Origin: Prorocentrum cordatum
Lineage: Eukaryota
Direction of reading: 5' to 3'
Assembly (NCBI GenBank): GCA_963575745.1
Contig: CAUYUJ010000206.1
Location: 1-64,000, forward strand
Length of the DNA: 64,000 nucleotides
Shown: positions 1 through 64,000 of the stretch, piece after piece
Numbering within the stretch: the stretch's first letter is position 1
How the letters are laid out: each line of letters starts with the position of its first letter
Notes under the pieces: model-generated
The model's database searches: none
The model's input: the letters and a program-made list of their open reading frames with translations, nothing else
What the model was told of the DNA's origin: nothing
Position numbers and translations under genes: made by a program

Positions 1-788
1 AGGAGGATGAGGAGGAGGAGGAGGATTTGATGAGGAGGAGGGATATGAGGAGGAGAAGAATGAGGAGGAGGACGAGGATAGGAGGAGGAGGAAAAGGAGG
101 AGGAGGAGCAGGAGGAGGAGGAGGAGGAGGAGGAGGAGGAGGAGGAGGAGGAGGAGGGGGAGGGGGAGGGGGAGGCGGATGGCGGAGGAGGCGGAGGCGG
201 AGGCGGAGGCGGAGGCGGAGGCGGAGGCGGAGGCGGAGGCGGAGGCGGGGGCGGAGGCGGAAGCGGATGCGGAGGCGGAGGCGGAGGCGGAGGCGGAGGC
301 GGAAGCGCAGGCGGAGGCGGAGGAGGAGGAGGAGGAGGAGGAGGAGGAGGAGGGAGGAGGAGGAGGAGGAGGAGGGGAGGAGGAGGAGGAGGAGGAGGAG
401 GAGGAGGAGGAGGAGGAGGAGGGAGGGAGGAGGTAGGAGGAGGGAGGAGGAGGAGGGAGGAGGAGGAGGAGGAGGAGGAGGAGGAGGAGGGGAGGAGGAG
501 GAGGGGAGGAGGAGGAGGAGGTAGGTGGAGTAGGAGGAGGAGGAGGAGGAGGAGGAGGAGGAGGAGGAGGAGGAGGAGAAGGAGGAGGCGGAGGCGGAGG
601 CGGAGGCGGAGGCGGAGGCGGATGCGGAGGCGGAGGCGCAGGCGGAGGCGGAGGCGGAGGCGGAGGCGGAGGCGGAGGCGGAGGCGGAGGCGAAGGCGGA
701 GGCGGAGGCGGAGGCGGAGGCGGAGGCGGAGGCGGAGGCGGAGGAGGAGGAGGAGGAGGAGGAGGAGGAGGAGGAGGAGGAGGAGGAG
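1..788. repeat. (GGA)n / (GGAGGC)n microsatellite tract; similar GGA/CCT tracts recur throughout the window
   Basis: Directly visible simple repeat. Confidence 0.97.
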
Positions 789-1684
789 GTGGCGTGCCCT
801 GCCATCCCGTCTCTCCCACCCCCTCTCCCTTCGGCCGCCCCCAGGCGCGGCCCTTCGAGGACGTCTGCGCGCCGCCGCCCGTGCCCGGCAGCTGTCCGCT
901 GGTCGGGCCATGGGAAGGGATGAGAGGGAGGGACAGGATGTCAGATGCGGCGCGAGCGCACCTAGCTTGCTCCTCCCCATTTCCCCCCCCTTTCCCCTTC
1001 CCTCCCTCCCCCCCTTTCCCCTTCCCTCCCTTCCCCCCCTTTCCCTTCCCATTTCCCCCCCTTACACACATCTCTTCTCCACCCTCTCCCCAAGACCCCC
1101 CTCCCCCCTCTCTCTATCCCCCCTCTCTCTCTCTCTCTCGGTGGCGCATTGGCTCACTGAGGTACCGAAGCGCGCATGCCAACGCGTGCTTGTTGCCGAC
1201 GCCTGTTGCCCAGGTGTGCAGACAGGGTGTGCCAACCTCTGATCGCCACAGACCCGCCTTGTTTTCAAACTGTGGTCTTTTACTGACCGTGCCAGGGGTA
1301 GGGCTGGTTCCGTCCCTTGTTCGTATCGCGGCACCTCCCGCATTGTGAGGTTGGTTTGCGCGGTATGTACAATGTGTTTGTCCGAATTGTTGCGCGCGAT
1401 CTCTCTCTCTCTCTCTCTCTCCCCCCTCTGTCTCTCTCTCTCTCTCTCTCTCTCTTTCCCTCCCTCGTGCTATATGATGACTGTGATGGCCCGCAGTGTC
1501 CACGGTCGCCACAGCAAAACACCGGCGGCCTCGAGAACGAAAACGCCGCAGCACACGCAAAGCCGATCCCCCTCCCCACGCCCCCCCTTCCTGCTCCCCG
1601 CCCCGTCCTCTTCCATTCTCGAGGAGGAGGAGGAGGAGTATGAGGAGGAGAAGGAGGAGGAGGAGGAGGAGGCGGAGCAGGAGG

Positions 1685-1721
<37 letters not shown>

Positions 1722-2007
1722 AGAGGGAGGGAGAGAGGAGGGAGGGAGGGAGGGAGGGAGGGAGGGAGGGAGGAGGGTGGGAAGGGGTGAGGCGAGGGAG
1801 GGAGGAAGGTTAGAGGAGGAGGGGGGAGGGAGGAAGAGAATGAGGAGGGAGAGGGAGGAGGAGGATGGGGGATTGGAGGAGGAGGAGGAGGAGGAGGAGG
1901 AGGAGGAGGTGAGGAGGGGGAGGCGGCGGAGAGGAGGAGGAGGAGGAGGAGGAGGTGGCGTGCCCTGCCATCCCGTTCTCCCACCCCCTCTCCCTCGGCC
2001 CCCCCAG

Positions 2008-2141
2008 GCGCGGCCCTTCGAGGACGTCTGCGCGCCGCCGCCCGTGCCCGGCAGCTGTCCGCTGGTCGGGCCGTTGCTCGCGGGCGCGAACGTGGCCTTT
2101 GCCGCGCCAGCGGCGATGAAAAGAGCATTCGCCCCCGCAAG
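2008..2141 (+). other. Candidate small exon of an unidentified host gene (ARPFEDVCAPPP...AFAPAR)
   Basis: Unique sequence island between repeats; pyrimidine tract then CAG|G acceptor; AAG|GA non-canonical donor. Partly duplicated at about 845-909. Confidence 0.3.
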
Positions 2142-2190
2142 GACGTGGAGGAGGAGGAGGAGGAGGAGGAGGAGGAGGAGGAGGAGGAGG

Positions 2191-2272
<82 letters not shown>

Positions 2273-3039
2273 CGACGACGACGAGCGAGCGAGGCCCCCG
2301 CGCATGCCAGAGGCGGGCAGATGGTGCGACCCATGTCTCGAATAGCAACAAAACATCAGCGTCAACTTTTGGAGGCCTGCGCGGATTTCTTGGCCTGCTA
2401 TTTCTCGGAAGGGATCTGCCTGTGCAGCCCGTGCCCGCATCGGAAATATACTGTCACGGAAGCCAAGATACAGACCAGGCCGCCAGCTGGCCACACGGTT
2501 TGCCTGACATGGCGAAAGAGTAGATTCGAGCTTTGCGGCTCACGATGCCCCTTTCCCGAGGCCCTCCAACCAGCGCAACTTTTCGGGCGGCAGGAGGCGA
2601 GAATACGTTGAGTGGACACGACGTGCAGGGGACCAAACGCCGCCTCGCATACGTACAGAAGTCATGTGATTCCTCTCGCTTCGCTTGGTGCACGTCTGGA
2701 CCACGTACGGTCCAGTCGTTGTGAGGATTTTTGGGACCCTCTTGGGGGCCTCCGGGAGGTTTTCTTGGGGGCCTCTTTGGGGTCCCTAGTGGGCGTCTTG
2801 GGTCGTCTTGGGGCGCTCTTGCGCCGTCTGGCCCGAGCGCCTCTTGGACCGTCCTGTGGGCCTCTCTGGGCCATCGCTCTTGGGTCGTCTTGGAGCCCTC
2901 TTGGGCCTTATTGGGGCTATCACAGAGGCTACTCGGGCCGTCATAAGCCGAGGATCCAAGATTGCTAAATCGCAGATCATATACAACTAATACATAAGAA
3001 TACAAATGATACCAGAGAACAAAGTCAATCATATTCTTT

Positions 3040-17150: not shown

Positions 17151-18330
17151 AGGAGGAGGAGGAGAAGGAGAAAGAGGAGGAGGAGGAGAAGGAGGAGGAG
17201 GAGAAGGAGGAGAATGAGGAGGGAAGAGGGAGGAGGGGGGAGGGAAGGAGGGAAGAAGGAGGGGGGGGAGGGAGGGAGAGGGAGGAGGAGGGAGGGAGGG
17301 AGGCGGGGAGGAGGGAGGAGGGAGGAGGGGGGGGGGGGAGGCGGGAGGAGGGAGGAGGAGGAGGGTGGAGGGAGGAGGGAGGAGGGAGGAGGGAGGAGGA
17401 GGAGGAGGAGGGAGGAGGAGGAGAGGGGAGAGGAGGAGGAGGAGGAGAGGAGAAGGACCAGGAGAGGAGGATCATAGGAGGAGGAGGATCAGGAGGATCA
17501 GGAGGATCAGGAGGAGGAGAAGGAGAGGATGGACGCAAACTAGCACCGTTCTTTCACTCCGATCGTCGCAAATACAGGAGGGAGAGGAGGAGTAGGAAGA
17601 AGAGGAGGAGGATCATCAGGATCAGGTTGATCAGGAGGAGGAGGAGGTGCAGCAGGAGGAGGAGGAGGAGGAGGAGGAAGAGGAGGGACGCAACAAGGAC
17701 CGGTCTTCACGTCCGATCAACGTCAATAAAGGAGGAGGAGGAGGAGGAGGAGGAGGAGGAGGAGGAGGAGGGACGCAACTAGCACCGTTCATTCTATCTC
17801 GCCAATACGGGAATAATCAAGAGGAGGGTAGGGACGCAAACCGCACCGGTCTTACGTTCCGATAAACGTCAGAAAAAAAAGGTGAGGAGGAGGAGGAGGA
17901 GGAGGAGGAAGCCCCTTGGACGCTTGAAGCTTGCTCGAGCGGGCTGAGAGGAAGCCGCCTGTCTGGAGGCGCCTCCCCGCCCGCGCCGCCCCGCCCCCCG
18001 CCTGCCCGCAGGCGCCTGCCTCGAAGAGCAGTGGCAGCACGCCCGCCGCCGAGGCCCCGGCGCCCAGCATCTTCAGCACAGAGTCAGGGTCCTCCTCCTC
18101 CTGCTCCTCCTCCTCCTGCTCCTCCTCCTCCTGCTCCTGCTCCTCCTCCTCCTCCTCCTCCTCCTCCATTTCCTCCTCTCCTCTGCGCCTCCTCCTCCTG
18201 CTTCCATGCATCATCCTCCTCCTCCTTCTCCGCCATCCTCCTCCTCCTCCTTCTCCTACTCCTTTCCTCCTGCTCCTCCTCCTCCTCCTCCTCCTCCTCC
18301 TCCTCCTCCTCCTCCTCCTCCTCCCCCTCC

Positions 18331-18352
18331 TCCGTAGCCATTTTGGCTCAAG
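18331..18352 (+). other. Exact dinoflagellate spliced leader (DinoSL), genomic copy at the LINE 5' end
   Basis: TCCGTAGCCATTTTGGCTCAAG, 22/22 match; followed by ATG rather than a GT donor, so not an SL RNA gene. Confidence 0.97.
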
Positions 18353-18504
18353 ATGATTGGTTCCCCTGGGGACCGCACGGATACCGCTAGTCCGCGGCCA
18401 GACCACCGTTCGCCTTCACCGTGGGAGTTGGGCGCCCACACCCAGTCCTTTCCAGATCGCGCTGCCACGGCCCACCGTGTGTGCTGCTGCCTGGTGTCGT
18501 GGAG

Positions 18505-19608
18505 ATGCCACCGCCGCATTACCGTTCGGAGCAGGCGCTTCCTTGGTACTGCAAGAGCTGCTGCGGGCCTTCGGGGAGACCGTGGTGGAATCATGCAGAG
18601 GCGCGGCAGTGTGCGAAGTGCAAGCTGGGCAAGGGACTGGTCTTCCACAGCGTGCGCCAGCCCGCGGCCCCCTCCCAGCGGAAGAAGGGCAATCAGGGCG
18701 GCAGCGGCAACGGCTACTGGGACGACTCCGTCAAGGTGGCCAAGCTCAAGTCCGAGCTCGCCGAGGCCCGCAAGCGGCTTGCCGCTGTGCAGAGGCCGCC
18801 GCCTGGCGGGGAGGACGTGCAGATGGAGCCGGCCGCGGACGGAGACGGCCCCGAGTCCGTCGCCAAGGACAGGCTACGCGAGGTCGGCGACCTCATCGGC
18901 AAGCTCAAGGGCATCACCGAGCCGTCGGTCGTGGCCACGCGCGACAAGCTGCTGGCCGAGCAGGCCGAGCTGCGGGCTAGGGTGGCGGAGTCCCGACCGC
19001 TCGGACAGCGCTTGCGCGAGATGGGAACTCAGTTCACCAGGCTGCAGAAGCTGCGCGACGACCAGCAGACCAAGCTCGATGGGCTGCAGGCGCAGTTGCG
19101 CGACCTGCAGGAGAAGGAACGGCTCACTCGGGACAAGCTGGCGGCCCTCGACGCTAGCATGGAGGAGCTGGACCAGGAGCGCAAGAGGCTTCAAGGGCAG
19201 GTTCCGACGCCTGGCGACAAGGCGTCGCTCGACGAGCCGATCAAGGGGGTTGGTGCCACGCTCGAGGGCCTCGGGATCTTGCTCCAGAGCCTGGGCGCCG
19301 ATCACCAGCTGTCGGGCAGCCTCACGGCGAGCTTCCAGGAGCTGCAGAGGTTGCAGGAGGAGGAGGCGGCAAAGTTGGCTGCCCAGAAGGCGCAGGCGGA
19401 TGCTGGGGCCGAGGCTGGTCCCGACGTCGAGCAGGCCGAGCGGCAGGACGACGCGGCAGCGCCTCGCACACCACAGCCATCTGCCTTCTCCGACGACCCT
19501 GAGTTCATGGAGGAAGTCGTTGCGGCTGGGGGCGAGAAGCACAGGCTGGAGGAGATCTTCATGCGTTGGGGTGCCAAGGTCAAGAGGCCCAGGCTCACCC
19601 CTGCCTAG
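18505..19608 (+). CDS. LINE ORF1: N-terminal RanBP2-like C4 zinc finger and long coiled coil
   Basis: WYCKSC...WNHAEARQCAKC motif; E/Q/K/L/A-rich heptad region; ATG at 18505, TAG at 19606-19608. Confidence 0.85.
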   Translation: MPPPHYRSEQALPWYCKSCCGPSGRPWWNHAEARQCAKCKLGKGLVFHSVRQPAAPSQRKKGNQGGSGNGYWDDSVKVAKLKSELAEARKRLAAVQRPPPGGEDVQMEPAADGDGPESVAKDRLREVGDLIGKLKGITEPSVVATRDKLLAEQAELRARVAESRPLGQRLREMGTQFTRLQKLRDDQQTKLDGLQAQLRDLQEKERLTRDKLAALDASMEELDQERKRLQGQVPTPGDKASLDEPIKGVGATLEGLGILLQSLGADHQLSGSLTASFQELQRLQEEEAAKLAAQKAQADAGAEAGPDVEQAERQDDAAAPRTPQPSAFSDDPEFMEEVVAAGGEKHRLEEIFMRWGAKVKRPRLTPA

Positions 19609-19667
19609 CATGGCTCCACGGCGATGGTTTTGCGTGTCTTGTGTGGTTCGTCCTCCTTTGTCGCACC

Positions 19668-22600
19668 ATGGCGTCGGTTTCAAGTATCACCACCGTGAAC
19701 GTGTCCTCGGGCGGCCCGCTCGTCGACTTCCTGCCCACGTGCTCGAGTTTTGCATCGCGGTGCAGGAACATCATGCCAAGGCCGAGGGCGATGCTTTGGC
19801 GAAGTTGCAGAATAAAGTAAGAGCTGCTGGGTACCATGGTATATGGGAGCCCGCCCTACCTGGGCAGGGAGTTGGCAGCAGAGGCGGGGTTGCGGTGCTG
19901 GCCCCGCTGCGGGTGGTCATCACCAAACCCCCAGGCCTGGACAGTCACGTGCTGCAGGAAGGCAGGATGATGGCGGCCCACGTCCACGCTGGGGTGAAGG
20001 GCGGCTTCGTCATGCTGTCGTGCTATTTCATTGTGGACGTCAAGCTGTCGCCCGAGAACCTGGCCATGCTGTACAAGCTGTACCAGTATGTCAGGTCGCT
20101 GGAGGCCATGGGCGTTCCGTGGATCGTAGGAGGCGACTTCAACATGGAGGTAGGCGAGCTCGGCCCGTTGTCCTGGCTCCAGTCGGCCAATGGCGTGGTG
20201 CTGGCGCCGAGAGAGCCGACTTGTCTTCAGAGCCTTCCTGGCCGCACCATTGACATGTTCATGGTTTCTTGCCGTTTGCTGCCTCGCGTTCGGCAACCAA
20301 TGGTCGTCGACGCGGAGACGTGGCCGCATCTACCAGTGACCATGGAGCTCTCCGCCACGGCTTTTGACGCGAAGGTCAGGAGGCTTGTCGAGCCACGCGG
20401 CTTTCGGAGGCCGCCTGCGGCGGGGTGCGCGAGGTTCCCCCCCGACTGGGACCCGACCTTGGCGATCATCCAGAGCGCGTCGCACAGCGAGGGCATCACC
20501 AGGGCCTGGGACGTCGTGCTCAGCGGCATCGAGTTCGAGCTGCGGGGCCGCTACGACGTCGTGAAGGACGTGGCGGGGTACTCCACGGTGCCAGGCCCCC
20601 CGACCTTCGAGCTGGCGAGTTTTCACCCTGTCGTGAAAGGTGCCTGGAGCAGGAGGTCGGCGGACACCCAGGCCTGGGCGCAGGCTGCGCGCTGGGCTCG
20701 TCACCTCAGGAGGGTTCGAGTGGCCTTGCAGAGCTTCGTGCTCCAGCTACGCCCGCAGCAGGTCTTCGAGCTCGGCAGCGTCGGCGAGGCGCACGTCGAC
20801 GGTGTGCCTGGCCTGGGCGATGGGGCACCCCCTGCTGCGGAGGTCGTCGGAGTGGCTGGTCTCTCCTCCGATGGTGGTCGGCCTCGGTCGAGAGCTCAGC
20901 GACACCAGCCCCCGCGACGGGCAGGCGAGGACCTATCGTGGGACGCCGTGCACTCCAAGGCGGCGCGCCACCTGCTGGAGTGCGAGAATTTCTTCCGGAG
21001 AATCTGGCGGAGGAAGGGAGTCTGGCCGCACCTGGACGCCGAAGCCGTCGGCTTCTTCTCGCGTGGCATACTTGCCTTAGCGCAGGCAGACTTCGAGCAG
21101 CAGGTCGACCGCATCCTGAGTATCTCCTCCGATGCTGAGGCCAAGCATGAGAAGGCCGTGATGCAGAGCTGGAGGCAGTGGGCGCAGGCAGCTTTTGCGG
21201 CTGGAGCCAAGGGAGCTCACCGATTCATGAAGCCCAAGGCTCTCCAGGAGATCGTGGACGGAGGCAATGGGCTACAACATGGGTACGTACTGGCTGATCG
21301 TAAGCTTGAGTATTGGGAAAGCTTCTGGGCGCGGCATGGCGGTGAGCTGGCTCGCCGACCTGTTGATGCTGACACTTGGGAGCAGCTGCCAAGGCTTGAG
21401 GCGGCCGACGTACTCAAGGCAATCCGTTGTTTCTCTTGGCAGACAGGCGTCGGGCAGATCAACATCGCGCCCAGGGCCATGGAGCACCTCTCCCACGGGG
21501 CGCTGACGGCTATGGCGCGCCTCTTCGAGCGGTGCGAGCACCTCCTGCTGTGGCCAGACGGCAGATTCCTCTCGAAGCTCGTGAGACTCCCCAAGCCAGG
21601 GGGTGGGGAGCGCCTGATTGTGCTGATGAACACGCTGGTCAGGATCTGGGGACGGGCGAGGCGGCCTGTCTCGGCAGCGTGGGAGAAGGCCCATGCGCTA
21701 CCAGAGGTCTGGGGCCACACTGGAGGCAAGTCGTCGAGTGATGCGGCCTTTGATTTGGCGCTCACCAAGGAGATGGCGACCCTGTGCGATGACGACGCCA
21801 TCATTGTGCTGCTGGACATGCTCAAATGCTACGAGCTGGTCAGGCATGATGCCATTTTGTTGGAGTGCAGGGCCAGTGGATACCCTATGCGAATGGCGTT
21901 CATGCTTGTGCAGATGTACCAGCAGCTGCGCTCGGTGCACTCGTATTCTTCGTATTCAGTGGCGCGCAGGGCGTATCAGGGCATCCTGGCAGGCTGCACC
22001 CACGCCACTACGCTTCTCATGGTGTTGTTGACTCGCAGCATTCGCCAGACGATGTCGGTCGCTCCTCAGGTTCAGCCCAAGGACTTGGTGGACGACGTCG
22101 CGCTGTGCTGGGTCGGCAACGACCCGAGCGGGGTGCGAGAAATGGCCATTGCCACTCGTGCGTTCTGCAGGGCTGTCCGGCCCCTCGGGCTGGTGCTGCA
22201 GATGGATAAGTCTGGGCACCTTACGACGTCCAGGCGCACCAGCTACCACTTTCAGAAGTACGCCAGGCTGCTGAAGATCGCTGGCAAGAGGCACATGCGG
22301 TATCTTGGCCACGACCTAGCTGGGTCGTCGGCCACAAGGGCCGTGCAGAAGGGACGCCTGAAGGCCATGCACGGAAAGAAGGCCAGCGTTCGAGCACTGC
22401 AGAAGGGAGCAGGACGACAGCGGGCGGCTCGGCTCTGGGCCACGGGTGTGCTGCCATCCGTGGGGCACGGAGCCACGGTCAGCGGCATCAGCGACACGGA
22501 GCTGCAGCAGATGAGGACCATGGCTGGCGTTTTCTGTGGCTACAAAGGGTCGGGCTCCCTGACGCTGTACCTGGCCGCGCAGCAGTGGAGCTTCGACCCC

Positions 22601-24450
22601 ATATTCCACGCTACCTTCAGCATCGTGGGGCAGTACGCGGCGTGGGTGTGGGATGGGCGTGTGACGCTCTCCCGACTGCAGCGGGCCTGGATGGGCTTGC
22701 GTGACTCCTGGGAAGCCCGCCACACTCACGTCACGTGGGCCAGTGCGCAGGGCCCGCTTTCGGCCTTGTGGTTGTCCCTCAGGAGAGTCAACTGGAACAT
22801 GGCAAGTTCTACAATCTTGGTTGACGATGAGGGCCTGCATATCAGTTTGCTGCAGTATTGTCCCAGTGAGGTGCTGTTTTTCCTGCGTCGCAGCCTCGAC
22901 CGTTGGCAGAGCCATCGTATCCTCGACCAGCTGCCTGAGGCGCCCCCAGCCGATGGTGACGGCAGGCGGCAGCAGCATGTGTGGCTTCGTGCGCTTCGAC
23001 TGGGACACGCCTCCTTGGCGCCTGGCCACAGAGGGGCTCTGGCCAAGCTGCAGTCCAACGGGGTCTGGTCGCCGCAGCGCCGCATGCAGGCTGGCTACGG
23101 CGGCGACGGTTCGTGCGAGTTCTGCGGGGAGGCCTGCTGCGACCTCGAGCATGAGATCTTCGGCTGCACGGTATTGCATCAGCAGCAGGAGGACGAGGAG
23201 ACGGAGCCGTACCCCGAGGAGGTGGCCAAGAGGAGGAAGGACATCCTGGAGGCAGCCCCGTGGCGCGACGGGGGCCAGGTGCAGGACTTCTCGGCCGTCG
23301 ACGTGCTCTACGCGCTGCCCCTGAGGCCTGCTTTCAGGCCGCTGCCTGCACGTGCTCAGGCTGAGCGCGAGTGGGGGGCGATCGACATGCCGTGGCCGTC
23401 GAAGTTGTACGGGGACGGGTCCTGTCTTGAAAGTGATTTCCCTGAGGAACGGCGCTGTGGCTGGGCCGTCGTAGCATTGACCCGAGACCTGTGGCCATAC
23501 AAAGCTTTGTTCGGGAGCCTGGGGGGCCCTATCCAGACGGTGCCCAGGGCCGAGCGCGTTGCTGGTCTCAAGGCCCTGCAGAGGGCCCAGAGGCCAGCCA
23601 CGTACGTGACTGATCATTTACAGCTGCAGGTCGAGGGAATGGCCTGGGAGGGTCGTCATGCTTCTGCCAGAGCGCCTCACGCGTCCATCTGGCGGAGCAT
23701 CCACGAGCTGTATAGAGGCGACCCTGTCAGGCCCGTGTTTGTTTGGACGAAGGCCCATCGGACCGTCCTCGAGGGGTTTGAGGCCTGCCTGGCCTCCCAG
23801 GAGCCCCTGGAGCATTTTTTCGGTAATATGTGGGCTGATGTTTTCGCCCGCGTGGCAGCGGCTGATTTCCTTGGATCCACCTCCGTGGTCAAGGCTCACA
23901 AATTTTCTCTGCTTCGGGCCCAGGACACGATGCGTTGTCTGGCCTGGGCTGCCGAGCGCGTGGCCCGCCTCTCCACCCCGATACTCCGTGCGCCTCCGAA
24001 GGCTGTCTTTCGGCCCCGCCGTCCGCGGCGGCCGACCGATCACGACTTTGTGGTCTTCGCTGGGGGAGCTATTCGATGTCGAGCCTGCTGGAGGCTTGCA
24101 GCGACGGCCTCGTCGTTGAAGTCTCTGGCCTCCCGTGCATGCGACCCCAGGAGGTCGGGCCAGGACACCAGGTCCAGGCCTTGGATCGAGTTTTGATCTG
24201 TGTTAAGTGCGGGGCGCACGCTGTGCGCCCCAATCGGCTGTCGGTCGGCCTGTCTCGAGCGTGCAAGAGGGCTGGGACGGGGTCGGCGGGAGCTGGGAGT
24301 GGGGGGGACGGAGCTATCGCGTCGATGCTCGAGCTGGCTCGAAGGGGCCTGCATCCCAAGACGGGCGAGCCCCTCGAGCCGCTCGTCTTCTCGGAGCTCG
24401 GGGTGCCTGCGATGCCGCAGCAGGCGCCCGAGCCCGAGGCACCTGACTAG
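19668..24450 (+). CDS. LINE ORF2 (APE endonuclease, RT, Cys/His finger, RNase H, two C-terminal CxxC fingers) with two 1-nt frameshifts at about 19750 and about 24147
   Basis: APE: ITTVNVS / IAVQEH / GGVAV / GGDFN / TIDM / HLPV. RT: LLDMLKCYE / GILAGC / LVDD / YLGH. Finger: CEFC..HEIFGC. RNase H: YGDGS / TVPRAE / TDH / KAH / NMWAD. C-terminal CRAC and CVKC. Confidence 0.92.
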
Positions 24451-24839
24451 TGGGCGGAAGTGCTGGCGGGGGGCGCGGTGCGAGTGGGGACTGCCCGGCG
24501 TTGCGCCGTTAGTGACCCTCGCACCGTTGCTCCCCAGCCCCGCGCACGGAAGGAGCAGATCCGCTGCACTTAAGGGCCCCTTAAGTGCAGCGGGCTGTCT
24601 TGGCCTCCATCGCGTCGATGCTCGAGCGTGCTCGAAGGGGCCTGCATCCCAAGGCGGGCGAGCCCCTCGAGCCGCTTGTTTTCTCGGAGCTCGGGGTGCC
24701 TGCGATGCTCAGCAGGCGCCCGAGCCCGAGGCACCCGAATAGTGGGCGGGTGCGGGCGGGGGGCGCGGTGCGAGTGGGGACTGCCCGGCGTTGCGCCGTT
24801 AGTGACCCTCGCACCGTTGCTCCCCTGCCCCGCGCACGG
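24316..24839 (+). repeat. About 230-bp diverged direct repeat at the LINE 3' end (24316-24549 and 24609-24839)
   Basis: Both copies run ATCGCGTCGATGCTCGAGC...CCCCGCGCACGG. Confidence 0.93.
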
Positions 24840-25162
24840 CGCGGAGAGCGCCCCTTGTTGGATGAGGGCCCTCTCTCGTTCTTTTTTTCGAGGCGTGTTC
24901 GTGATTCACTTGCACGCTCTCGGCACTGTCCTCACTGTCCTCCTCCTCCTCCTCCTCCTCCTCCTCCTCCTCCATCGCCTCCCTGACTCATGCCTGGGCC
25001 CCCAGGCCCCCGGCTGGATTTCTTTGCCTCCCTCCGCGGGGGGGTCCCTCTCCGCGGCGGCCCGTCGAGTCTCGGGCCGCCAGCGGCGGGCGGACGGTTC
25101 TATCTCTGTCCGCGCGCGCCTTGTCATTGGAGGCCCTGGGTTCCTCTAAGACTCGGACGTCG

Positions 25163-36252: not shown

Positions 36253-37020
36253 CTAAGCAGGCCTGGTCATCGACATGCTCGAACAAATGCATACTATGAT
36301 CCAGGGGTGCATCTTGTCTGCGGATCTGCGGCTTAGTACCGTGTGAGATCACCCCGTCCACCGACGCGCTTACATGGCAGGATCGGAGTTGGTTGTCTTC
36401 CAGGTGGGTGGCTTCTGTTTGCCGACGGTGCAGGACACGTTTGTAATTGTTTTTCTGGTTGCACGAGGCTAGTCCCGCAGTGTGGAGGGGGGTGCCCATC
36501 GCACAAGTTCTCAATCGTCTGGCAGTGAGTGCTGCTTTGGCGTAATTTCGCTGCTCGAAGGCCACCTTCATGGGCGCACCATCACTTTTGACACGTCAAA
36601 ATACTGCCCAGGAAATAAGGTCGTTCGCTCAAGGGGCAGGTTGCAATATTCAACGTGAGCGCTCTGCGAGTTGCAGACAGGCTTATCAAATTGTCAATAT
36701 GTTGCTTCGGGCGACGCGAGTCGGTCGGCAGGCTCATTCTCCTCGCTCCAGGATCAGGGATTCGTTGGGCATCCATCCGGGCGGGATCGCTATGGCTCTC
36801 GACCTCGAGGAGGAAGGGGGGAGGGGGGGACGGTGGGGCACAGTGGCAGCGCAGCAGCCTCAGCCAGCAAGCCCGAAGGCCGGCAAGGCCAGCGGCAGCC
36901 ACCCCCCACCCATTCGAGACGATCGAAGGACAGGACAGGACAGGAGCGGCGTGCGCGGAGGCGCGCCCTGTGCGGGCTGCCGTAAGCCTTCTCGCATTCT
37001 CGCACGCGCATTCTCACATG

Positions 37021-37219
37021 TGTGGTCGTACCCCCACTCCCCTCCTCCCTGTGTGTCCCTTGGATCTGACCGTAGCCTGTTGGCTTAAGGCCGCCGGGTC
37101 GGCGGAGTTTCTCAGTACTGTACTGTGGTGTTCAGAGGCGTGCCTCGGAAAACTCTATGCCCATCCTTTGATAACTCGTTATCTTTCGCCTTCTTCGATG
37201 CCCGACGGAGACGATCTCA
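37021..37219 (+). repeat. 5' LTR (TG...CA)
   Basis: Identical to 46403-46601 except the penultimate base. Confidence 0.96.
37069..37089 (+). other. SL-like sequence within the LTR (also at 46451-46471)
   Basis: ACCGTAGCC-TGTTGGCTTAAG versus SL ACCGTAGCCATTTTGGCTCAAG: 19/22 (one gap, two mismatches). Confidence 0.8.
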
Positions 37220-40200
37220 ATGGTAGCCGGAGCGTGGATGAGAATGGGTCGGGACAGGCAACAGAGGGCGCGAGGACGTCCGAGGCACCACGGCAGGCTG
37301 GGAGCCCATCGGCTGAGGCGGATGCAGCACATCAGCAAGGCGGCGAAGCAGCAGAGGGCCGCTGGTGGAGCTCGTGGTGGCAAAGCTGGTCGGGGGCAGG
37401 CTGGGACTGGAGCATGTCCGACTGGGATGACAACAGCACCCACGGCTGGACTAAGGTGGGCTCGCAGCCCGTCAGGAGTAGGGATTTTTCGGCGCCTCCT
37501 TCCTTTCCCGGGCTAGATCACCTGGAGATCTTCACGGCCAACTTGCAGGCATGGTCCAAGAGAACAGGGGTTCTGCCAGAACACCAGGCCAGCAAGGTGC
37601 TCGAAGGCTTCGAGATAGATCTTCAGGGCAAGCGCAAGGGGATACGCCACCTTCTTGATGCAGAGGACGGCATAACGGAGTTGCTCAAGCACTTGCACCT
37701 TCTTAGGGGGGAAAAGCCAGGCGACAAGGAGCGAGAAGCTCACAGCGAGGCGCTGTTCGATTACCTGATTCGTCCGACAGAGTCCCTCACTGCTTTCGTC
37801 ATCAGGCGTGACAGCCAGATTGCTCAAGCAGAGAGGTTCGGTCTCACGCTTCCAGACGCTGTGCAGGCACGCTACTACGAGGAGGGCGCACAGCTGACCA
37901 AGCATAACCGCATCAACCTACGGACCTTGATGGGCGGAGACAAGACAGTAGCAGCGGTTAGACGAGCGCTCTTGGAGCTTGACGTCTCAGAGAAGTCGGT
38001 TCTCCCTCAGAAGTCAGCGACGCCGGCGAAGAGTTTCCCAGCAGAGCTAGAGGGCTGGGACTCGGACTCGGAAGACGGCGACGAGACGCTCGACCTCTTT
38101 GAAGTGGAATTCCCCGAAGATGACGCGACAGTGTTTCTGGGGGCGCTGGACGACAAAGACTTGTGCGAAGATGAGGGATACCAGATCTTCATGGAGATGG
38201 CTTCGAAGCGAAGGCGGACCTGGAAGGAGTCTAGGCAAACGAAGGCGGCGAGAAAAGTTGACCGAGACTTTTTCGACCGTAAGCGAGGTGGCAAAGGTGG
38301 AGTCCTTTCGCCTCCAACTCCATCTCCCGGCTTCAAGCGCATCAGCAAGGACGACTTGAAGAAGAGAACGCGTTGCACAAATTGTGGAGATAAAGGTCAC
38401 TGGCGAGAAGATTGCAAGAAGCCATACAGGTCGAAGGCGGACAGACTCAAGTCGGAGGGCAAGAGCTTCTACTTTCAAGTGGGATCGGCAGCGGGCTCGA
38501 GCGGAAGCGCCTGGGCGATTTTCGCCGAGGAGCTGGCCGAGGCGATCGCGTTGGTGACGGCTAGCAGGTCAGACTCATTTTCGGGAGTGACGCTGAGGTC
38601 GATGGCAGACCAGGCTCTGGTAGACACGGCAGCGGCCCAGGCTTTGATAGGCGTCCCGGACCTCAAGCATCTCAAGTCGGCTTTCAAGGAGAAGGGTTTC
38701 AAGGTGCACGTTAGGTACCAGGACGATCTTCCTTTCGCCAACGGCGTCGGAGGGCGCGTCCGCCCGGTCGCCAAAGCTTTCGTTCCAGTATCATTTCACG
38801 GCTGTGGGGTCTTGGAATTTCTCGTGTTGCCGCATCCTTGTCCTCCCTTGTTGCCAGCAGGGTTCCTGGACTTCATGTCGGCCAAGATCGACCTAGCGGC
38901 CAACCAGATGACGGTGGGAACGGACGACACCACCACGCTGGATATGACGAAGCTCCCATCAGGCCACCGCACGATCGGTCTGATCGGCAAGTCCCCGTCG
39001 GATTTCGTTCTCGACCCTGATCTGGCCCAGAAGTTTCCGTCTTCTCGGATCGGCTCGGAGAGCGCCTGGGCCATGAGCGTGTCGAGCGGCTCAGACAGGT
39101 GGGAGCGGGGCGGCAACAAGCTGAGGCTGGTGTTCACCAAGCCCCGGCGTGCCATGCCAGTGAAGAAGGATCTGAGTGAGTCTCCCGTTCCGTCGAGCTT
39201 TCTGGAAGACGAGATGGTCACGACTTGCAGGTTCAAGAATCCCGACGGGATCTACGTCGAGCACATCTTCGAGGGCTCGGTATCCGACCTCGAGGACGAT
39301 GCGAAGCTCATGCCGGACTACTGGGTCGGGCACGTGGAGTTTCAGGTGACGGCGCCGCCTGTGCAGGACAGGAGGGGCGGGCCGGGGCCGCCTGCATGCC
39401 AGCAGTCTCCTCCTCCTCTCTCGTCGTCCGAGTCGTCGTTCGAGTCGGGATCGATCGCGACGGGACTGAAGTCAGGGACTGACGAGGGGTCTCGAGACCC
39501 CCTCTCCTCCGTAGCCCCTCTCGGCTCGAGCTCGGCCGATTCTTTCGTCCACGTATCGCCTCCCAGCTCGCAGCCGGCGGGTAGCCATGCCGGTGCAGGT
39601 TGTCAAGAAGGGCGCCAAGCCGGGTTCGAGGTCAGTGGGGAACCTGCTGGGGCGCACGCGCGCCTCGATCAGGAACGCAGGCGGGCTCGCTCCACCGACG
39701 CACTACGAGGAGCCGGCCGAGAGCGAGATCGAGGAGAACTGGGGCGTCACGCCGGATCCCTGGAGGGACACGCAGCTGCAGCAGATCGACTACTCGGAGG
39801 TGGAGCTCAGCGAGGTCGAGAAGGGTCTGGTCAACGAGGGCGGGTTTATGTTCACGCCCGCGGAGACGGGCTGGCGGCGCTTCGCGCTGAAGCTGCTGGC
39901 AGTACTGACCTCGTGCGCTCAGTCGAGGCTGATCTCGGTGCTCGCCCCCTCGGTGATGCCGGCGATCGCCAGCAAGAAGATCTTCGCGACCGAGAACTGC
40001 CCGCACCCCCTGGAGCACCGCAAGCGCCGGGCCAACCAGCATGCGGCCTGGATCGTCTGCCAGCTGTGCAACAAGCGTCTTTCGTGTCACTCCAAGACGG
40101 TCGAAAAGAAGCTCGAGGCCAAGATCAAGAGGGAGTGCGAGAAGACCGAGAAGTCACAGAAGGCCAAGAACGAGCAGGACATGATCAGGGAGGCGGTGGA

Positions 40201-60958: not shown

Positions 60959-61058
60959 NNNNNNNNNNNNNNNNNNNNNNNNNNNNNNNNNNNNNNNNNN
61001 NNNNNNNNNNNNNNNNNNNNNNNNNNNNNNNNNNNNNNNNNNNNNNNNNNNNNNNNNN
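60959..61058. other. Assembly gap (100 N)
   Basis: Run of N. Confidence 0.99.
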
Positions 61059-61062
61059 CCAG

Positions 61063-61063
61063 G

Positions 61064-61101
<38 letters not shown>

Positions 61102-61236
61102 GACTACTACTACTACTACTACTGCTACTACTACAACTACTACTACCACTACCACTACCACTACGAATATAACGTCAATGCTAAGCATTAAAGTCATAGT
61201 AGAAGTAGTACACATAGCAGTAGTAGTAGTAGTCGC

Positions 61237-61276
<40 letters not shown>

Positions 61277-61401
61277 ATAGTAGTAGTAGTAATAGTAGTA
61301 GTAGTAGTAGTAGTAGTAGCAGCGGCAGTAATAGTAGCGGCACTGTCAGTTGTAATGGGAAAGAAGAAATTGTAATAGCAGTGGCAGTAGTAGTAGTAGT
61401 C

Positions 61402-61975: not shown

Positions 61976-63114
61976 CGAAGCGGCTCCGCGACGCCATGCG
62001 GGCTCACCCGATGGCGATCATCCAGGCCCCGAGGAACAGTAGGGAGGCCTTGCGGGCTGGGTCGTGCCGCCACCGCTTACCCCAGGCCCCCCGCCGCATT
62101 CTGCGGGGCCATGGAGACCGCTCACGGACTCCCGACAGCGGCGTCAGTGACGCCGATGAGCATATGCGGCGCACGGACTCCCGACAGCGGCGTCAGTGAC
62201 GCCGATGAGCATATGCGATGACAATGCTCTTGGCCGCCCAGCCCTGCCGTTCCGCTCAGGGCGAACCGCTCGGCGAACTGACCCTTGCGGCCACGCACGT
62301 CGCGAGCCTTGCCCCTGGGTCGATGCCCGCGGCCGCCGCGGTGACCGACTCAGGGGCGGCGGCAGGCGGCGGGTGGGTCGCTGGCGAGACGCCCCGTAGT
62401 TACCCATCTTCGCCCTGGGCGAAGGTCAGAACAGCCCCAACGCCAGCGGCCGGCGGTCGCAACAGCGCGAGCTCGGGCACGTGCTCGGGCAGTTCCTTGG
62501 GTCTGCCAGCTGCCGCCAAGGCTCACGCGATGGACCCGAGGCGGAGGCCATCCAGGCTTGCCTGCGTGGGAGCGCTCGCCAAGTCCACGCGCTGGAATGG
62601 CATTTCGGCGAGCCCCTGCCGCCGCTTTGCCAGCCGCTGCGCCTGCGCCACAGCCGCCCCGGGGGGACGGAGGCCCTGCCTGCGGCGCAGTCGCTTTTTC
62701 CCACGGCGGCACACCCCGGGCAGCGAGTTGGTGCAATCGGCGCTCTGCTGCCTGGCACATGTGGCACCCGCTCGCGAACGCGACCGTCCGCTCGGCGCGG
62801 AGGGCCGCCGCAGCGGCGCTGGCCAGTGAACCTCGCGGCCGCGGTCCACGAGGCCGTCCACCAACGATGGCACTTGGAGGAAGTGCAGACGGAGAACGAG
62901 CAGAAGAGGCAGCAGCCCATCGAAGTGTCCGCGTGGAAAGTCTTGGTATCGGCGCCGAGGTCCCAGGTCTCACTCAGGGGGCCTCCTCCTCCTCCGCCTC
63001 CTCCTCCTCCACTTGGTATCGGCCGAGGTTCCAGGTCTCACGCAGGGGGCCGCCGCCTCCTCCTCCTCCTCCTCCTCCTCCTCCTCCTCCTCCGCCTCCG
63101 CCTCCGCCTCCGCG

Positions 63115-63136
63115 TCCGTAGCCATTTTGGCTCAAG
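63115..63136 (+). other. Second exact DinoSL, directly after (CCT)n/(CCTCCG)n
   Basis: TCCGTAGCCATTTTGGCTCAAG, 22/22; not followed by GT. Confidence 0.97.
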
Positions 63137-63187: not shown

Positions 63188-64000
63188 ATGGCGGCGGTCC
63201 TTCCCCTCGTCGGGGAGCAGGTGGCGTTGCTTGCGCCGCTGGTGCAGGCGGCAGCTGCAGGGGCTGCTGAAGGCGGCGGCGGGCGGCAGGTGGTGGCCGC
63301 CGCTGTCGCTTCGGCCCTTCGCGTGGGCGCTTCTCTCCTCGCCCCGCGCCTGGCTTCCGAGGTGGACGAGGAGGTGGCGGCAAGGGAGCAGCTTGGAAGG
63401 CCCCACCTGACCGAGATGGTGCGGGCGGGCCGCGAAGGCGTCGTGGCTCGGCCCTCTGGGGCTAGTCGCGCCTTCCGCGGCTGGGCCCAGCACGCCGATT
63501 TCGGCGCAGGGCCGCAGGCGGTGCCCACCACGGCGGCCGAGGCCCGGCGCCGGGCGCGTGGCCGCCGTCGTGGGGCTGGCGGTGCAGCGTCGGCTCCCAC
63601 CACGGACGACCTGGAGGACGAGAAGGAGGAGCTGCAGGAGAAGGTCTCAGTGCACCCTTGCGCTCAGCCGATGGGGGAGCTGATGAAGAAGGACCTCATG
63701 TGCGCCCCTGGATGCCAGGCCACCCTGGAGGTCAGGGCGGTGGGGTCGGCCATTGACGAGCTGGTCCTGGAGAACACTCGGCTGTTCATGGGGGAGACCA
63801 AGCGCGACTCTGAGAAGCTCGTCGTGAAGGACTCCAAGGAGAAGCGGCTGCCGCTGACCGTCAGCGCTGCCAAGCAGATGGTCTTGGGCACCGCGTGCGC
63901 CGTGAAGATGCTGGAGCCCCAGCTGGCGGAGGCCCGATCCGCGCACGAGGCCGCCTGCAGGGCGGTCCTCGGCGCGGGCTTCGTGTCGTCGCAGCTGTTC
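63188..64000 (+). CDS. 5' part of an SL-headed intronless ORF (at least 271 codons, open to window end); possible ORF1 of another retroelement or a retrogene
   Basis: First ATG 51 nt after the SL: MAAVLPLVGEQVALLAPLVQ...GFVSSQLF; absent from the ORF track because no stop falls inside the window. Confidence 0.75.
   Translation, partial: MAAVLPLVGEQVALLAPLVQAAAAGAAEGGGGRQVVAAAVASALRVGASLLAPRLASEVDEEVAAREQLGRPHLTEMVRAGREGVVARPSGASRAFRGWAQHADFGAGPQAVPTTAAEARRRARGRRRGAGGAASAPTTDDLEDEKEELQEKVSVHPCAQPMGELMKKDLMCAPGCQATLEVRAVGSAIDELVLENTRLFMGETKRDSEKLVVKDSKEKRLPLTVSAAKQMVLGTACAVKMLEPQLAEARSAHEAACRAVLGAGFVSSQLF

What the first reader, a model, noticed from the sequence alone, without database searches (positions are those of the whole stretch)
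18290..24973. LINE headed by a perfect spliced leader and embedded in (CCT)n: possible promoterless retroelement that depends on trans-splicing
Seen: the element starts exactly with the 22-nt DinoSL, preceded by (CCT)n, and ends CACTGTCCT-CACTGTCCT-(CCT)n. Established: DinoSL is added to mRNAs by trans-splicing, and genomic SLs mark retroposed mature mRNA. The known SL-linked non-LTR elements (CRE/SLACS/CZAR, NeSL) insert into SL RNA genes, which does not fit here because there is no SL intron on either side. Inference: the LINE RNA was trans-spliced, fully reverse-transcribed and inserted in (CCT)n. The microsatellite could then act as the polypyrimidine tract and the SL terminal AG as acceptor, so read-through transcripts would regenerate an identical capped element RNA. 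The absence of stacked CCATTTTGGCTCAAG relics fits use of the terminal AG.
Basis: partly seen in the sequence, partly recalled or inferred. Interest (0 to 1): 0.88.

Follow-up and report, generated by a model that had tools for sequence, protein, structure and literature searches.

The report
Spliced-leader-headed LINE inside a microsatellite
A dinoflagellate jumping gene whose DNA copy begins with the cell's own 22-letter mRNA leader and sits inside a simple CCT repeat, which shows that its RNA is processed like a host message before it is copied back into the genome.

Summary
A perfect DinoSL (18331-18352) directly follows a 244-nt (TCC)n array. It heads a 6.6-kb non-LTR element that ends CACTGTCCT x2 plus (TCC)12 at 24973.

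The element is a young, slightly broken copy of a multi-copy LINE of a Prorocentrum cordatum-like genome. ORF1 has a Cys knuckle and a coiled coil. ORF2 has an APE endonuclease, RT, a CCHC motif and an RNase H-like part.

Two distant relatives from other dinoflagellate contigs also start with the leader:
- L121 has unique flanks and an A9 tail.
- L160 lies in (AG)n on both sides.

So leader-headed LINEs recur. Retrotransposition of a trans-spliced, fully copied RNA is well supported.

The microsatellite is better read as the insertion target, probably inherited through the 3' tail, than as a polypyrimidine tract. In L160 the repeat is a purine tract on the sense strand.

The first AG after the tract is the leader's internal one.

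Flanks of other copies of this family and RNA data were not available. A second leader at 63115, heading an unrelated multi-copy ORF, also follows (CCT)n.

The parts
18090..18330 (+). Upstream (TCC)n/(CCT)n array. It is imperfect far from the element and perfect (CCT)21 next to it, then CCCCCTCC.
   Evidence: TRF gives 18090-18333, 81 copies, 80% matches; read. It holds no AG dinucleotide and only 6 A, the nearest at 18258.
18331..18352 (+). DinoSL, 22 nt, perfect; 5' terminus of the element.
   Evidence: The consensus DCCGUAGCCAUUUUGGCUCAAG is quoted in PMC8045281 (passage).
18353..18504 (+). 5' UTR, 152 nt.
   Evidence: It lies between the leader and the ORF1 ATG at 18505.
18505..19608 (+). 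ORF1, 367 aa: N-terminal CxxC...CxxC knuckle (WYCKSCC...CAKCK) followed by a coiled coil.
   Evidence: GC at third codon positions is 0.82-0.94 in this frame. Translation. Only weak coiled-coil Pfam hits. It is 90-95% identical to the N-terminal halves of P. cordatum gene models P0004, P0005, P0011 and P0016.
19668..24450 (+). ORF2 (1594 aa in the intact relative P0003). In this copy it is read in three frames because of two 1-base differences, near 19750 and near 24144.
   Evidence: tblastn of P0003 gives 19668-19751, 19748-24160 and 24145-24447 at 96-99% identity. Contigs of all 4 laid runs carry one more base at 19750 and at 24144 (table 4).
19715..20269 (+). APE-type (EEP) endonuclease domain.
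   Evidence: PF03372 E 1.2e-4, profile positions 11-203 of 225. A profile of alignment A1 against PDB finds exodeoxyribonuclease III at E 3e-9.
21590..22315 (+). Reverse transcriptase domain. The VDD motif lies at 22085-22105.
   Evidence: RVT_1 E 1e-5, profile positions 2-204 of 205. The A1 profile finds human LINE-1 ORF2p at E 1.9e-5. Motif coordinates.
23114..23167 (+). CCHC motif (C-x2-C-x8-H-x4-C) behind the RT.
   Evidence: Columns C1150, C1153, H1162 and C1167 are invariant in alignment A1. Coordinates.
23408..23761 (+). RNase H-like region (YGDGSC ... WTKAHR).
   Evidence: There is no Pfam hit in this copy. It aligns with the RNase_H domain of L160 ORF2 (PF00075, 25.9 bits, cut-off 25.8; BLASTP). 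P0009 gives a weak RNase_H hit.
24451..24941 (+). 3' UTR. It holds a diverged second copy (24609-24839) of 24316-24549, which is the end of ORF2 plus the start of the UTR. There is no poly(A).
   Evidence: Self-blastn gives 94.4% over 234 nt.. Joints at 24551-24608 in 3 runs show that copies differ here (tables 5, 5c).
24924..24941 (+). Terminal 9-mer CACTGTCCT, twice.
   Evidence: Read.
24938..24973 (+). Downstream (TCC)12, perfect. It is either a target remnant, a target-site duplication or a tail.
   Evidence: The whole 32-nt run is also present upstream.
63056..63114 (+). (CCT)12 then (CCGCCT)n CCGCG, directly in front of the second leader.
63115..63136 (+). Second perfect DinoSL.
63188..64000 (+). 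ORF behind the second leader (51-nt UTR); it runs off the window. It belongs to a multi-copy P. cordatum protein family with no known domain, and it is not a LINE protein.
   Evidence: 11 proteins at 54-91% identity. No Pfam hit. No longer fused forms. Third-position GC is 0.84.

Best explanation
This is a young, nearly intact copy of a multi-copy APE-type LINE of a Prorocentrum cordatum-like dinoflagellate.

How the copy arose:
- The element RNA was handled like any dinoflagellate mRNA. The 22-nt spliced leader was trans-spliced on to an acceptor directly in front of ATGATTGG.
- The element's reverse transcriptase copied the RNA to its very 5' end, so the leader became the first 22 bp of the new DNA copy.
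- Shown: a perfect leader at the 5' boundary here and in two distant LINE families of the same clade.

How it integrated:
- Integration was by target-primed reverse transcription into a (CCT)n/(AGG)n microsatellite.
- Shown: the same repeat on both sides and no poly(A).
- Inferred: the RNA 3' end, ...CACUGUCCU with or without read-through (CCU)n, pairs with the nicked AGG strand and primes. The doubled 9-mer is a restart or slippage.

Role of the microsatellite:
- I read it as the insertion target, handed on through the 3' tail, and not as a splice signal.
- A related leader-headed LINE (L160) sits in the same way inside (AG)n.

How the family is transcribed (not shown):
- I take it that source copies are transcribed by read-through inside host transcription units and receive their 5' end by trans-splicing.
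- No promoter then needs to be carried, and most leader-bearing copies are passive products.
For: Boundaries and chance:
- The sequence was read. There are 2 perfect leaders where 0.01 is expected.

LINE anatomy:
- ORF1 and ORF2 follow from codon-position GC, Pfam, the PDB profile and tblastn of the intact relative P0003.

Multi-copy and young:
- 7 gene models on 7 different P. cordatum contigs fall in three 90% clusters: P0011-P0014, P0004, P0005 and P0016.
- The longest laid contig differs at 9 letters and 2 gaps in 4349 (table 8).
- Depth rises from the 5' bins to the 3' bins, for example X5 from 94-136 to 587-935. That fits 5'-truncated copies (table 2).

Leader in other copies:
- Contigs in 3 of the 4 laid runs (X1, X4, X6) lie on the element from 18340 onward. 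They therefore include the last 13 leader letters joined to the UTR, with 10-17 more letters beyond (table 8).
- They read C at 18570 where the window has T (table 3).

Relatives:
- L121: leader at 75-96, one ORF of 2320 aa with EN and RT, an A9 tail and unique flanks.
- L160: (AG)n, leader at 117-137, ORF1 of 373 aa with a Cys knuckle, ORF2 of 2535 aa, then A5 and (GA)n.
- L160 ORF2 scores over the cut-offs: RVT_1 43 bits, Exo_endo_phos 36.7 bits, RNase_H 25.9 bits.
- L160 ORF2 against P0003 by BLASTP: E 2e-22 and E 2e-10.

Repeat association inside the window:
- The 30 nt before the two leaders hold 9 and 6 CCT units.
- Only 0.6% and 2.2% of window positions reach those values.
Against: - Only this one copy's flanks could be read. 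Whether the family prefers (CCT)n rests on n=1, plus one unrelated leader-headed unit.
- A target-site duplication cannot be told apart from a split array.
- The contigs that carry the leader-UTR joint have only 23-30 letters on the leader side. That is under the 31 letters the tool asks for before a place counts as bridged. The letters beyond 18340 are masked, and the runs' kind is a guess ('DNA?').
- Pfam scores of this copy are under the curated cut-offs.
- No RNA evidence of any kind was obtained.
- L127, a relative with its 5' region in view, has no intact leader. It has only the 9-mer TTGGCTCAA about 40 nt before its ORF.
- Pairing of the RNA tail with the target is inference.
Confidence: 0.75

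Rival explanations
1. Leader-bearing daughter copies are themselves sources. Read-through transcripts are trans-spliced at the terminal AG of the copied leader, with (CCT)n as the polypyrimidine tract, so an identical capped RNA is regenerated at every new site.
For: - Exactly one leader and no stacked 15-nt relic in this copy.
- Both leaders in the window follow AG-free, pyrimidine-rich tracts of 70 nt or more.
- The family is multi-copy and young, and the leader appears in contigs that are not this copy.
- An element whose 5' end is made by splicing cannot carry upstream signals along, so the target would have to supply them.
Against: - L160 has the same build inside (AG)n, which is no pyrimidine tract, and L121 has no repeat.
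- The first AG after the tract is the internal AG at 18336, not the terminal one at 18351.
- Passages of PMC12014239 report CCATTTTGGCTCAAG relics in retrogene transcripts, which is what use of the internal AG leaves.
- The tract has no A within 73 nt of the leader to serve as a branch point.
- No RNA data were obtained.
Confidence: 0.2
2. Master-copy model. A few source copies sit behind a native acceptor AG in a transcribed region. All leader-bearing copies are dead-on-arrival products, and the repeat is only the preferred landing site.
For: - It explains a single leader without relics with no special assumption.
- This copy has two frame breaks in ORF2.
- L121 lies in unique DNA with no acceptor-like context.
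Against: - No copy without a leader was seen, though none could have been seen with the data at hand.
- Many near-identical copies suggest more than occasional activity.
Confidence: 0.45
3. The leader acts as a promoter. The TTT(T/G) motif inside the copied leader serves as a core promoter, as Song et al. 2017 proposed for retrogenes. Transcripts start in or behind it and are then trans-spliced.
For: - The proposal and its prediction of single, not stacked, leaders are in PMC5585692, section 11 (read whole).
- A single perfect leader is seen here, in L121 and in L160.
Against: - Nothing in the sequence tests promoter activity.
- A transcript that starts inside the leader still needs the terminal AG as acceptor with almost no upstream intron.
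Confidence: 0.1
4. The LINE is a site-specific element inserted in a spliced-leader RNA gene, as CRE/SLACS/CZAR and NeSL-1 are.
For: The element abuts a complete leader exon.
Against: - There is no intron-like GT behind the element or behind the leader, and the flanks are (CCT)n.
- Three different downstream contexts follow three leaders.
- The endonuclease is APE-type at the N-terminus.
- True SL RNA genes in the MAG contaminant contigs look different: leader followed by GTAC.
Confidence: 0.02
5. Assembly artefact. The leader-element joint or the repeat flanks are a mis-join.
For: Microsatellites are hard to assemble, and the window holds a 100-N gap at 60959-61058.
Against: - Contigs of three public runs from three studies carry the last 13 leader letters joined to the UTR.
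- The same build is seen in two unrelated assemblies (L121, L160).
Confidence: 0.03

Closest known systems
Leader-tagged retrogenes of dinoflagellates. Slamovits and Keeling 2008 is known to me only as cited in PMC3942190 and PMC5585692. Also Song et al. 2017 (PMC5585692) and PMC12014239.
   Same: A DNA-encoded DinoSL at the 5' end marks reverse transcription of a mature trans-spliced RNA. The copy has no introns.
   Different: - Here the retroposed RNA is that of the retroelement itself.
- The leader is complete and single, with no relic.
- There is no poly(A), and both flanks are the same microsatellite.
- Song et al. state that the source of the reverse transcriptase is unknown (section 11).
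SL-gene-specific non-LTR elements: CRE1/2, SLACS, CZAR in trypanosomatids and NeSL-1 in nematodes. Names and properties are recalled, not from a call.
   Same: A non-LTR element next to a spliced-leader exon.
   Different: - Those elements insert into leader RNA genes at a fixed site and use a restriction-enzyme-like endonuclease behind the RT (recalled).
- This element has an N-terminal APE-type endonuclease, lies in (CCT)n and has no leader-gene intron beside it.
Microsatellite-targeting and simple-repeat-tailed LINEs: Dong (TAA)n, Waldo (ACAY)n, Kibi/Koshi (TC)n and Mino (AC)n of the R1 clade, and the tails of I factor, CR1/L2 and UnaL2. All recalled, not from a call.
   Same: - The same simple repeat on both sides of the element.
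- No poly(A).
- A short terminal unit is repeated.
- Priming by pairing of the RNA tail with the target is the accepted idea for such elements (recalled).
   Different: - A different clade (EN-RT-CCHC-RNase H-like, found in dinoflagellates).
- A leader at the 5' end.
- Target preference is shown for one copy only.
- The relative L160 uses (AG)n and L121 uses no repeat.
SymbioLINE elements of Symbiodinium (de Mendoza et al. 2018, PMC5890265; passages read).
   Same: Dinoflagellate LINEs with Exo_endo_phos, RVT_1 and RNase_H, conserved 5' and 3' UTRs and no poly(A) tail.
   Different: - The passages found with the terms 'spliced leader', 'trans-splic', 'dinoSL' and 'SymbioLINE' mention no leader on the elements ('spliced leader' 0 and 'dinoSL' 0 occurrences).
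- Their ORF1 is a DNA methyltransferase; here it is a Cys knuckle plus a coiled coil.
Human LINE-1 and its processed pseudogenes.
   Same: - APE-type endonuclease plus RT (the A1 profile matches LINE-1 ORF2p chains at E 1.9e-5 to 1.5e-4).
- A 3' bias of copies.
- Possible action in trans on host mRNAs.
   Different: - L1 carries an internal promoter in its 5' UTR and a poly(A) tail (established knowledge).
- Here the 5' end is made by trans-splicing, and the tail is a CCT repeat.

Membership tests
APE-type non-LTR (LINE) retrotransposon | Reverse transcriptase domain of the RVT_1 type. | tested here: met
   - This copy: E 1e-5, 25.8 bits, under the 29.6-bit cut-off, but covering profile positions 2-204 of 205.
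- Relatives over the cut-off: P0010 32.9 bits and L160 43 bits.
- A profile of alignment A1 finds LINE-1 ORF2p.
APE-type non-LTR (LINE) retrotransposon | Apurinic-endonuclease-like (EEP) domain N-terminal to the RT. | tested here: met
   - This copy: 22.3 bits, under the 24.5-bit cut-off.
- All 5 relatives tested pass the cut-off, at 26.3-37.2 bits.
- The A1 profile finds exodeoxyribonuclease III at E 3e-9.
APE-type non-LTR (LINE) retrotransposon | No long terminal repeats; copies truncated at the 5' end. | tested here: met
   - Self-blastn finds only the internal 234-nt repeat in the 3' region.
- Contig depth rises towards the 3' end in all 4 runs (table 2). Depth of contigs is a rough measure.
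APE-type non-LTR (LINE) retrotransposon | Target-site duplication. | tested here: inconclusive
   Both flanks are (CCT)n. The 32-nt downstream run also occurs upstream, so a duplication cannot be told from a split array. L121 has no shared word of 6 nt or more at its ends.
Leader-tagged retrocopy of a mature dinoflagellate mRNA | DNA-encoded DinoSL at the 5' end of the unit. | tested here: met
   Perfect 22 nt at 18331-18352.
Leader-tagged retrocopy of a mature dinoflagellate mRNA | Poly(A) remnant at the 3' end. | tested here: not met
   The element ends CACTGTCCT x2 plus (CCT)n, with no A run. The relatives have A9 (L121) and A5 (L160).
SL-gene-specific elements (CRE/SLACS/CZAR/NeSL) | Flanks reconstitute a spliced-leader RNA gene. 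| tested here: not met
   The flanks are (CCT)n. No GT intron follows the leader or the element. Rfam gives 0 matches, although Rfam may hold no dinoflagellate leader family.
SL-gene-specific elements (CRE/SLACS/CZAR/NeSL) | Restriction-enzyme-like endonuclease behind the RT (feature recalled). | tested here: not met
   The endonuclease is APE-type and N-terminal.
Microsatellite-specific LINE | Most copies of the family lie in the same repeat, in one orientation. | not testable with these tools
   - No genome is held for the window.
- There is no other copy in the window.
- The letters of public contigs are masked at the repeats.
- Only this copy's flanks are known.

The most novel reading that the evidence does not exclude
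Dinoflagellate LINEs of this clade carry no promoter at all.
- Their 5' end is made by spliced-leader trans-splicing.
- The copied leader (its terminal AG, or its TTTT/TTTG motif) restores a usable 5' end at each new site.
- A read-through 3' tail homes each lineage to 'its' kind of microsatellite: (CCT)n here, (AG)n in L160.
- The same machinery makes the leader-tagged retrogenes. The second leader-headed unit, behind (CCT)n at 63115, would be one of them.
Probability: 0.2. Interest if true: 0.85.

Novelty: new variant of a known kind. Interest (0 to 1): 0.6.

Why it matters
Known background:
- Leader relics on dinoflagellate retrogenes are well known.
- The enzyme that makes those retrogenes is not. 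Song et al. 2017 say so in section 11.
- Four full-text searches and passages from ten papers gave no description of a LINE that itself begins with the leader.

What this finding adds:
- Three LINE families of one clade carry the leader, so their RNAs pass through the host's trans-splicing. That gives a concrete candidate for the retroposition engine.
- It raises a testable question: how does a LINE persist when its 5' end is set by splicing, so that nothing upstream can travel with it?
- The matching repeat on both sides, (CCT)n here and (AG)n in L160, points to microsatellite homing in a group where that has not been described.
- If the flanks of retrogenes show the same signature, the link between these LINEs and gene duplication in these very large genomes can be tested by a simple census.

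Tried and rejected
- No RNA holder listed. The look-up of sequencing runs listed 24 runs and none is on record as RNA. This says nothing about expression.
- The own genome is not held. A census of copies and flanks could therefore not be made.
- Earlier findings of this scan: 3 look-ups, nothing shown.
- JGI metagenome scan with ORF1: 482 pattern matches, 0 relatives.
- Viral-contig scans with P0003 and with alignment A2: 0 relatives.
- Alignment A1 was too diverse for a scan. I used the narrower A2 instead.
- Read laying masks 18290-18339 and 24930-25000. The letters of contigs upstream of the leader and in the 3' repeat were not shown, so flanks of other copies remain unknown.
- L127: no intact leader, only the 9-mer TTGGCTCAA; left as inconclusive.
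- L120: an 11-mer TTTGGCTCAAG lies about 170 nt behind the ORF stop; not followed further.
- L165 (the rest of the L138 contig): no LINE domains recognised by eye and no repeat at its far end; left.
- The second unit's protein has no Pfam hit, no longer fused forms and no usable Atlas hit. It was rejected as a LINE ORF1 for lack of support.
- The window's 1947-aa ORF as one protein: rejected.
- Structure prediction, fold search and complex prediction were not used, because no claim here depends on them.
- Supplements were not opened. Table S23 of PMC10666404, which lists dinoSL-bearing transcripts of P. cordatum, may bear on expression of this family.

Full report
**Observation**

The window reads ...(CCT)21 CCCCCTCC T CCGTAGCCATTTTGGCTCAAG ATGATTGG....
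- The 21-mer lies at 18332-18352. With T at 18331 it is the full 22-nt DinoSL, whose consensus DCCGUAGCCAUUUUGGCUCAAG is quoted in PMC8045281 (passage).
- A search with up to 3 mismatches on both strands finds two sites in 64,000 nt, both perfect (18332 and 63116). The expectation is 0.01, and 0 of 100 shuffles gave two.
- Upstream lies a (TCC)n array at 18090-18333: 81 units, 80% matches.
- At the other end the sequence reads ...CTCGG CACTGTCCT CACTGTCCT followed by a perfect (TCC)12 up to 24973.
The given start, 18290, simply lies inside the repeat.

**Anatomy**

The 1947-codon frame that opens at the ATG right behind the leader is not one gene.
- Codon-position GC shows that 18500-19600 is coded in another frame, with third-position GC of 0.82-0.94.
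- ORF1 runs 18505-19608 (367 aa). It has an N-terminal CxxC...CxxC knuckle and a long coiled coil.
- ORF2 starts at 19668 and, in intact relatives, ends at 24450.
- ORF2 holds an EEP/APE endonuclease (PF03372, E 1.2e-4) and an RT (RVT_1, E 1e-5). Both are under Pfam's cut-offs but cover almost the whole profiles.
- ORF2 also holds a CCHC motif and an RNase H-like part.
- A profile of six relatives finds exodeoxyribonuclease III (E 3e-9) and human LINE-1 ORF2p (E 1.9e-5) among solved structures.
- Relatives pass the Pfam cut-offs.
- The 3' UTR (24451-24941) holds a diverged second copy of the end of ORF2, 94% over 234 nt. It has no poly(A).
- Self-comparison finds no terminal repeats and no second copy in the window.

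**State of this copy**

- Compared with the 99%-identical protein P0003, ORF2 is read in three frames.
- At the two frame changes (19750 and 24144), and at one intergenic place (19626), contigs of all four laid runs differ from the window by one base (table 4). The one at 24144 is a C4/C5 run and could be an assembly error.
- The copy is therefore young and slightly broken, or imperfectly assembled.

**Family and organism**

- The best protein matches are gene models named Prorocentrum cordatum: 8 proteins at E 1e-3 or better among 8000 scored.
- Three 90% clusters hold 7 models on 7 different contigs of that species, one ENA protein on a 6588-bp contig, and a 120-aa fragment filed under a Pyramimonas transcriptome.
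- The ORF2 core has 3827 representative relatives at E 1e-3 or better, 251 of them at 1e-30 or better. The clade is large.

**Public reads**

- 24 runs were listed, 20 hold part of the stretch and 7 hold half or more. I laid 4 of them: X1, X4, X5 and X6, from four studies.
- All four cover the whole element, and depth rises towards the 3' end.
- In X1, X4 and X6 a contig lies on the element from 18340, the edge of the tool's repeat mask, and has 14, 17 and 10 further letters. These contigs thus hold the last 13 leader letters joined to the UTR.
- They read C at 18570 where the window has T, as all depth does in all four runs.
- This falls short of the 31 letters per side that the tool asks for before a place counts as bridged, and the further letters are not shown. 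I take it as a good hint, not proof, that the leader belongs to the family and not to this copy alone.
- For X5 no such record is among those listed (721 records are not shown).

**Relatives elsewhere**

A JGI metagenome scan with ORF1 found nothing. A scan with an alignment of four distant ORF2 relatives gave 18 loci, 8 of them strong.
- Among these 8, the 5' region is in view in two.
- L121 has a perfect 22-nt leader at 75-96 on the strand of its 2320-aa EN-RT ORF. It lies 75 nt from the contig start, in unique sequence, with an A9 run 110 nt behind the stop.
- L127 has no intact leader, only a 9-mer of it.
- Two loci are 5'-truncated copies (L122, L125). In four the element runs off the contig (L120, L123, L124, L126).

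A scan of prokaryote genome records for the leader gave 20 loci that are dinoflagellate contamination of MAGs.
- Six look like true leader RNA genes, with the leader followed by GTAC.
- One, L151, is the start of a 9096-nt contig that I fetched whole as L160.
- L160 reads: (AGAGAGAC)n(AG)n, leader at 117-137, ORF1 of 373 aa with a Cys knuckle, ORF2 of 2535 aa, about 30 nt of UTR, A5, then (GA)11...(GA)14.
- Its ORF2 scores over the Pfam cut-offs for RVT_1, Exo_endo_phos and RNase_H. It aligns with P0003 at E 2e-22 over RT-CCHC-RNase H and at E 2e-10 over the endonuclease.

Of four elements of this clade with the 5' region in view, three begin with the leader. Two of those three lie in one kind of microsatellite on both sides, but the kind differs.

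**The repeat**

- The window is full of this repeat class. Perfect cores form 47 AGG-strand arrays (2400 nt) and 10 CCT-strand arrays (512 nt).
- Even so, only 0.6% and 2.2% of positions have as many CCT units in the preceding 30 nt as the two leaders have, 9 and 6.
- The second leader (63115) heads a 51-nt UTR and an ORF of a multi-copy P. cordatum family without known domains: 11 proteins at 54-91% identity, no longer fused forms. It is a leader-tagged retrocopy of something other than a LINE.
- In the MAG contaminant contigs, 12 leader sites that are not followed by GTAC have at least 30 nt upstream. Four of the 12 follow a simple repeat directly: (TCA)10, (AG)n, (GACA)6 and an imperfect GT-rich run.
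- Two of the 12 (L147, L154) are followed by GT and may be leader genes.
- Against a simple-repeat share of 5-13% this gives P = 0.002-0.06. The window's own perfect-repeat share is 7%. This is suggestive only.

**Mechanism**

*Shown:*
- the leader at the exact 5' end;
- the same repeat on both sides;
- no poly(A);
- a doubled terminal 9-mer ending in CCT.

*What follows from established knowledge:*
- A DNA-encoded leader marks reverse transcription of a trans-spliced RNA. This is the retrogene model as described in PMC5585692 section 11 and PMC12014239.
- APE-type LINEs integrate by target-primed reverse transcription.

*Inferred:*
- The RNA 3' end (...GUCCU, perhaps with read-through CCU repeats) pairs with the nicked AGG strand.
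- The doubled 9-mer is a restart.
- A lineage keeps landing in the repeat type that its source copy sits in, because that repeat is its transcript's tail. This would explain (CCT)n here and (AG)n in L160.

- A splice-made 5' end does mean that no upstream signal can travel with the element, so the question it answers is real.
- Both leaders in the window follow AG-free pyrimidine tracts of 70 nt or more.
- Three points count against it:
  - The same build occurs in a purine repeat (L160) and in unique DNA (L121).
  - The first AG after the tract is the leader's internal one. Its use leaves the 15-nt relic reported for retrogene transcripts (PMC12014239, passage).
  - The nearest A for a branch point is 73 nt upstream.
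- The absence of a relic fits a few master copies with a native acceptor equally well. It also fits Song et al.'s leader-as-promoter idea.
- I rate the self-renewing acceptor at 0.2, master copies at 0.45 and the leader as promoter at 0.1.

**Comparison with the known**

- It is not a member of the SL-gene-specific elements. Its flanks and its type of endonuclease fail that test.
- It works like the microsatellite-homing, repeat-tailed LINEs of animals (recalled). Membership in any such clade was not tested, and target preference is known for one copy only.
- It is a LINE by its domains.
- Literature searches, with listings and passages read:
  - 'DinoSL' + 'LINE' + 'retrotransposon';
  - 'Prorocentrum cordatum' + 'genome assembly' + 'LINE';
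  - 'spliced leader' + 'non-LTR retrotransposon' + 'dinoflagellate';
  - a five-term search.
- Passages were read in PMC7245778, PMC12014239, PMC5890265, PMC8045281, PMC11453091, PMC10666404, PMC3942190, PMC5585692, PMC7789003 and PMC3229502.
- None describes a LINE headed by the leader. Papers outside the library, and supplements, were not seen.

**Limits**

- There is no census of the family's flanks.
- There are no RNA data.
- The kind of the public runs is a guess.
- Contig letters are masked at the repeats.
- The comparative sample is small: three leader-headed elements and one without.

Noticed in passing
L001-L119 (viral contigs): The exact DinoSL occurs in 119 stretches of giant-virus-bin contigs with a median GC of 0.21. 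Of 133 distinct sites, 126 are preceded by A, and nearly all lie directly behind a conserved AT-rich motif of about 45 nt. At 109 of 133 sites a first-ATG ORF of 100 aa or more follows (median distance 49 nt), against 27 of 357 random positions. It looks as if a virus or other AT-rich genome encodes the host leader in front of most of its genes. One literature search listed nothing that describes this.
   Followed up: partly
window 63056-64000: A second perfect leader directly behind (CCT)12(CCGCCT)n heads a multi-copy P. cordatum ORF family without known domains. Upstream, a 45-nt unit (CTTGGTATCGGC...CAGGGGGCC) followed by (TCC)n occurs twice. It looks like the 3' end of another retrocopy.
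   Followed up: partly
window 36619-46225: Ty1/copia-type LTR retrotransposon coding region: zf-CCHC, integrase core and RVT_2 in two long + strand frames.
   Followed up: no
window 49557-50801: Another RVT_1 match (E 1.2e-7, 32 bits) in a 415-aa frame. It is not related to the LINE under study by tblastn.
   Followed up: no
window 61059-61960: About 900 nt of (GTA)n/(AGT)n-type trinucleotide repeats right after the 100-N gap at 60959-61058.
   Followed up: no
window 1-2600: The same 40-nt sequence (TGGCGTGCCCTGCCATCCCGT...) follows (AGG)n arrays at 789 and 1955. This suggests a repeat unit of about 1.15 kb that ends in this microsatellite.
   Followed up: no
L120 3590-3610; L125 1-50; L127 1-110: Three things seen in relatives of the LINE. 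An 11-nt 3' part of the leader lies about 170 nt behind the ORF stop of L120. A 5'-truncated copy starts right after (TA)n(GA)n in L125. An (ATGGCCTCC)12 array lies upstream of L127.
   Followed up: no
L149: A MAG contaminant contig with a leader followed by two stacked 15-nt relics, the classical recycled-retrogene pattern.
   Followed up: no
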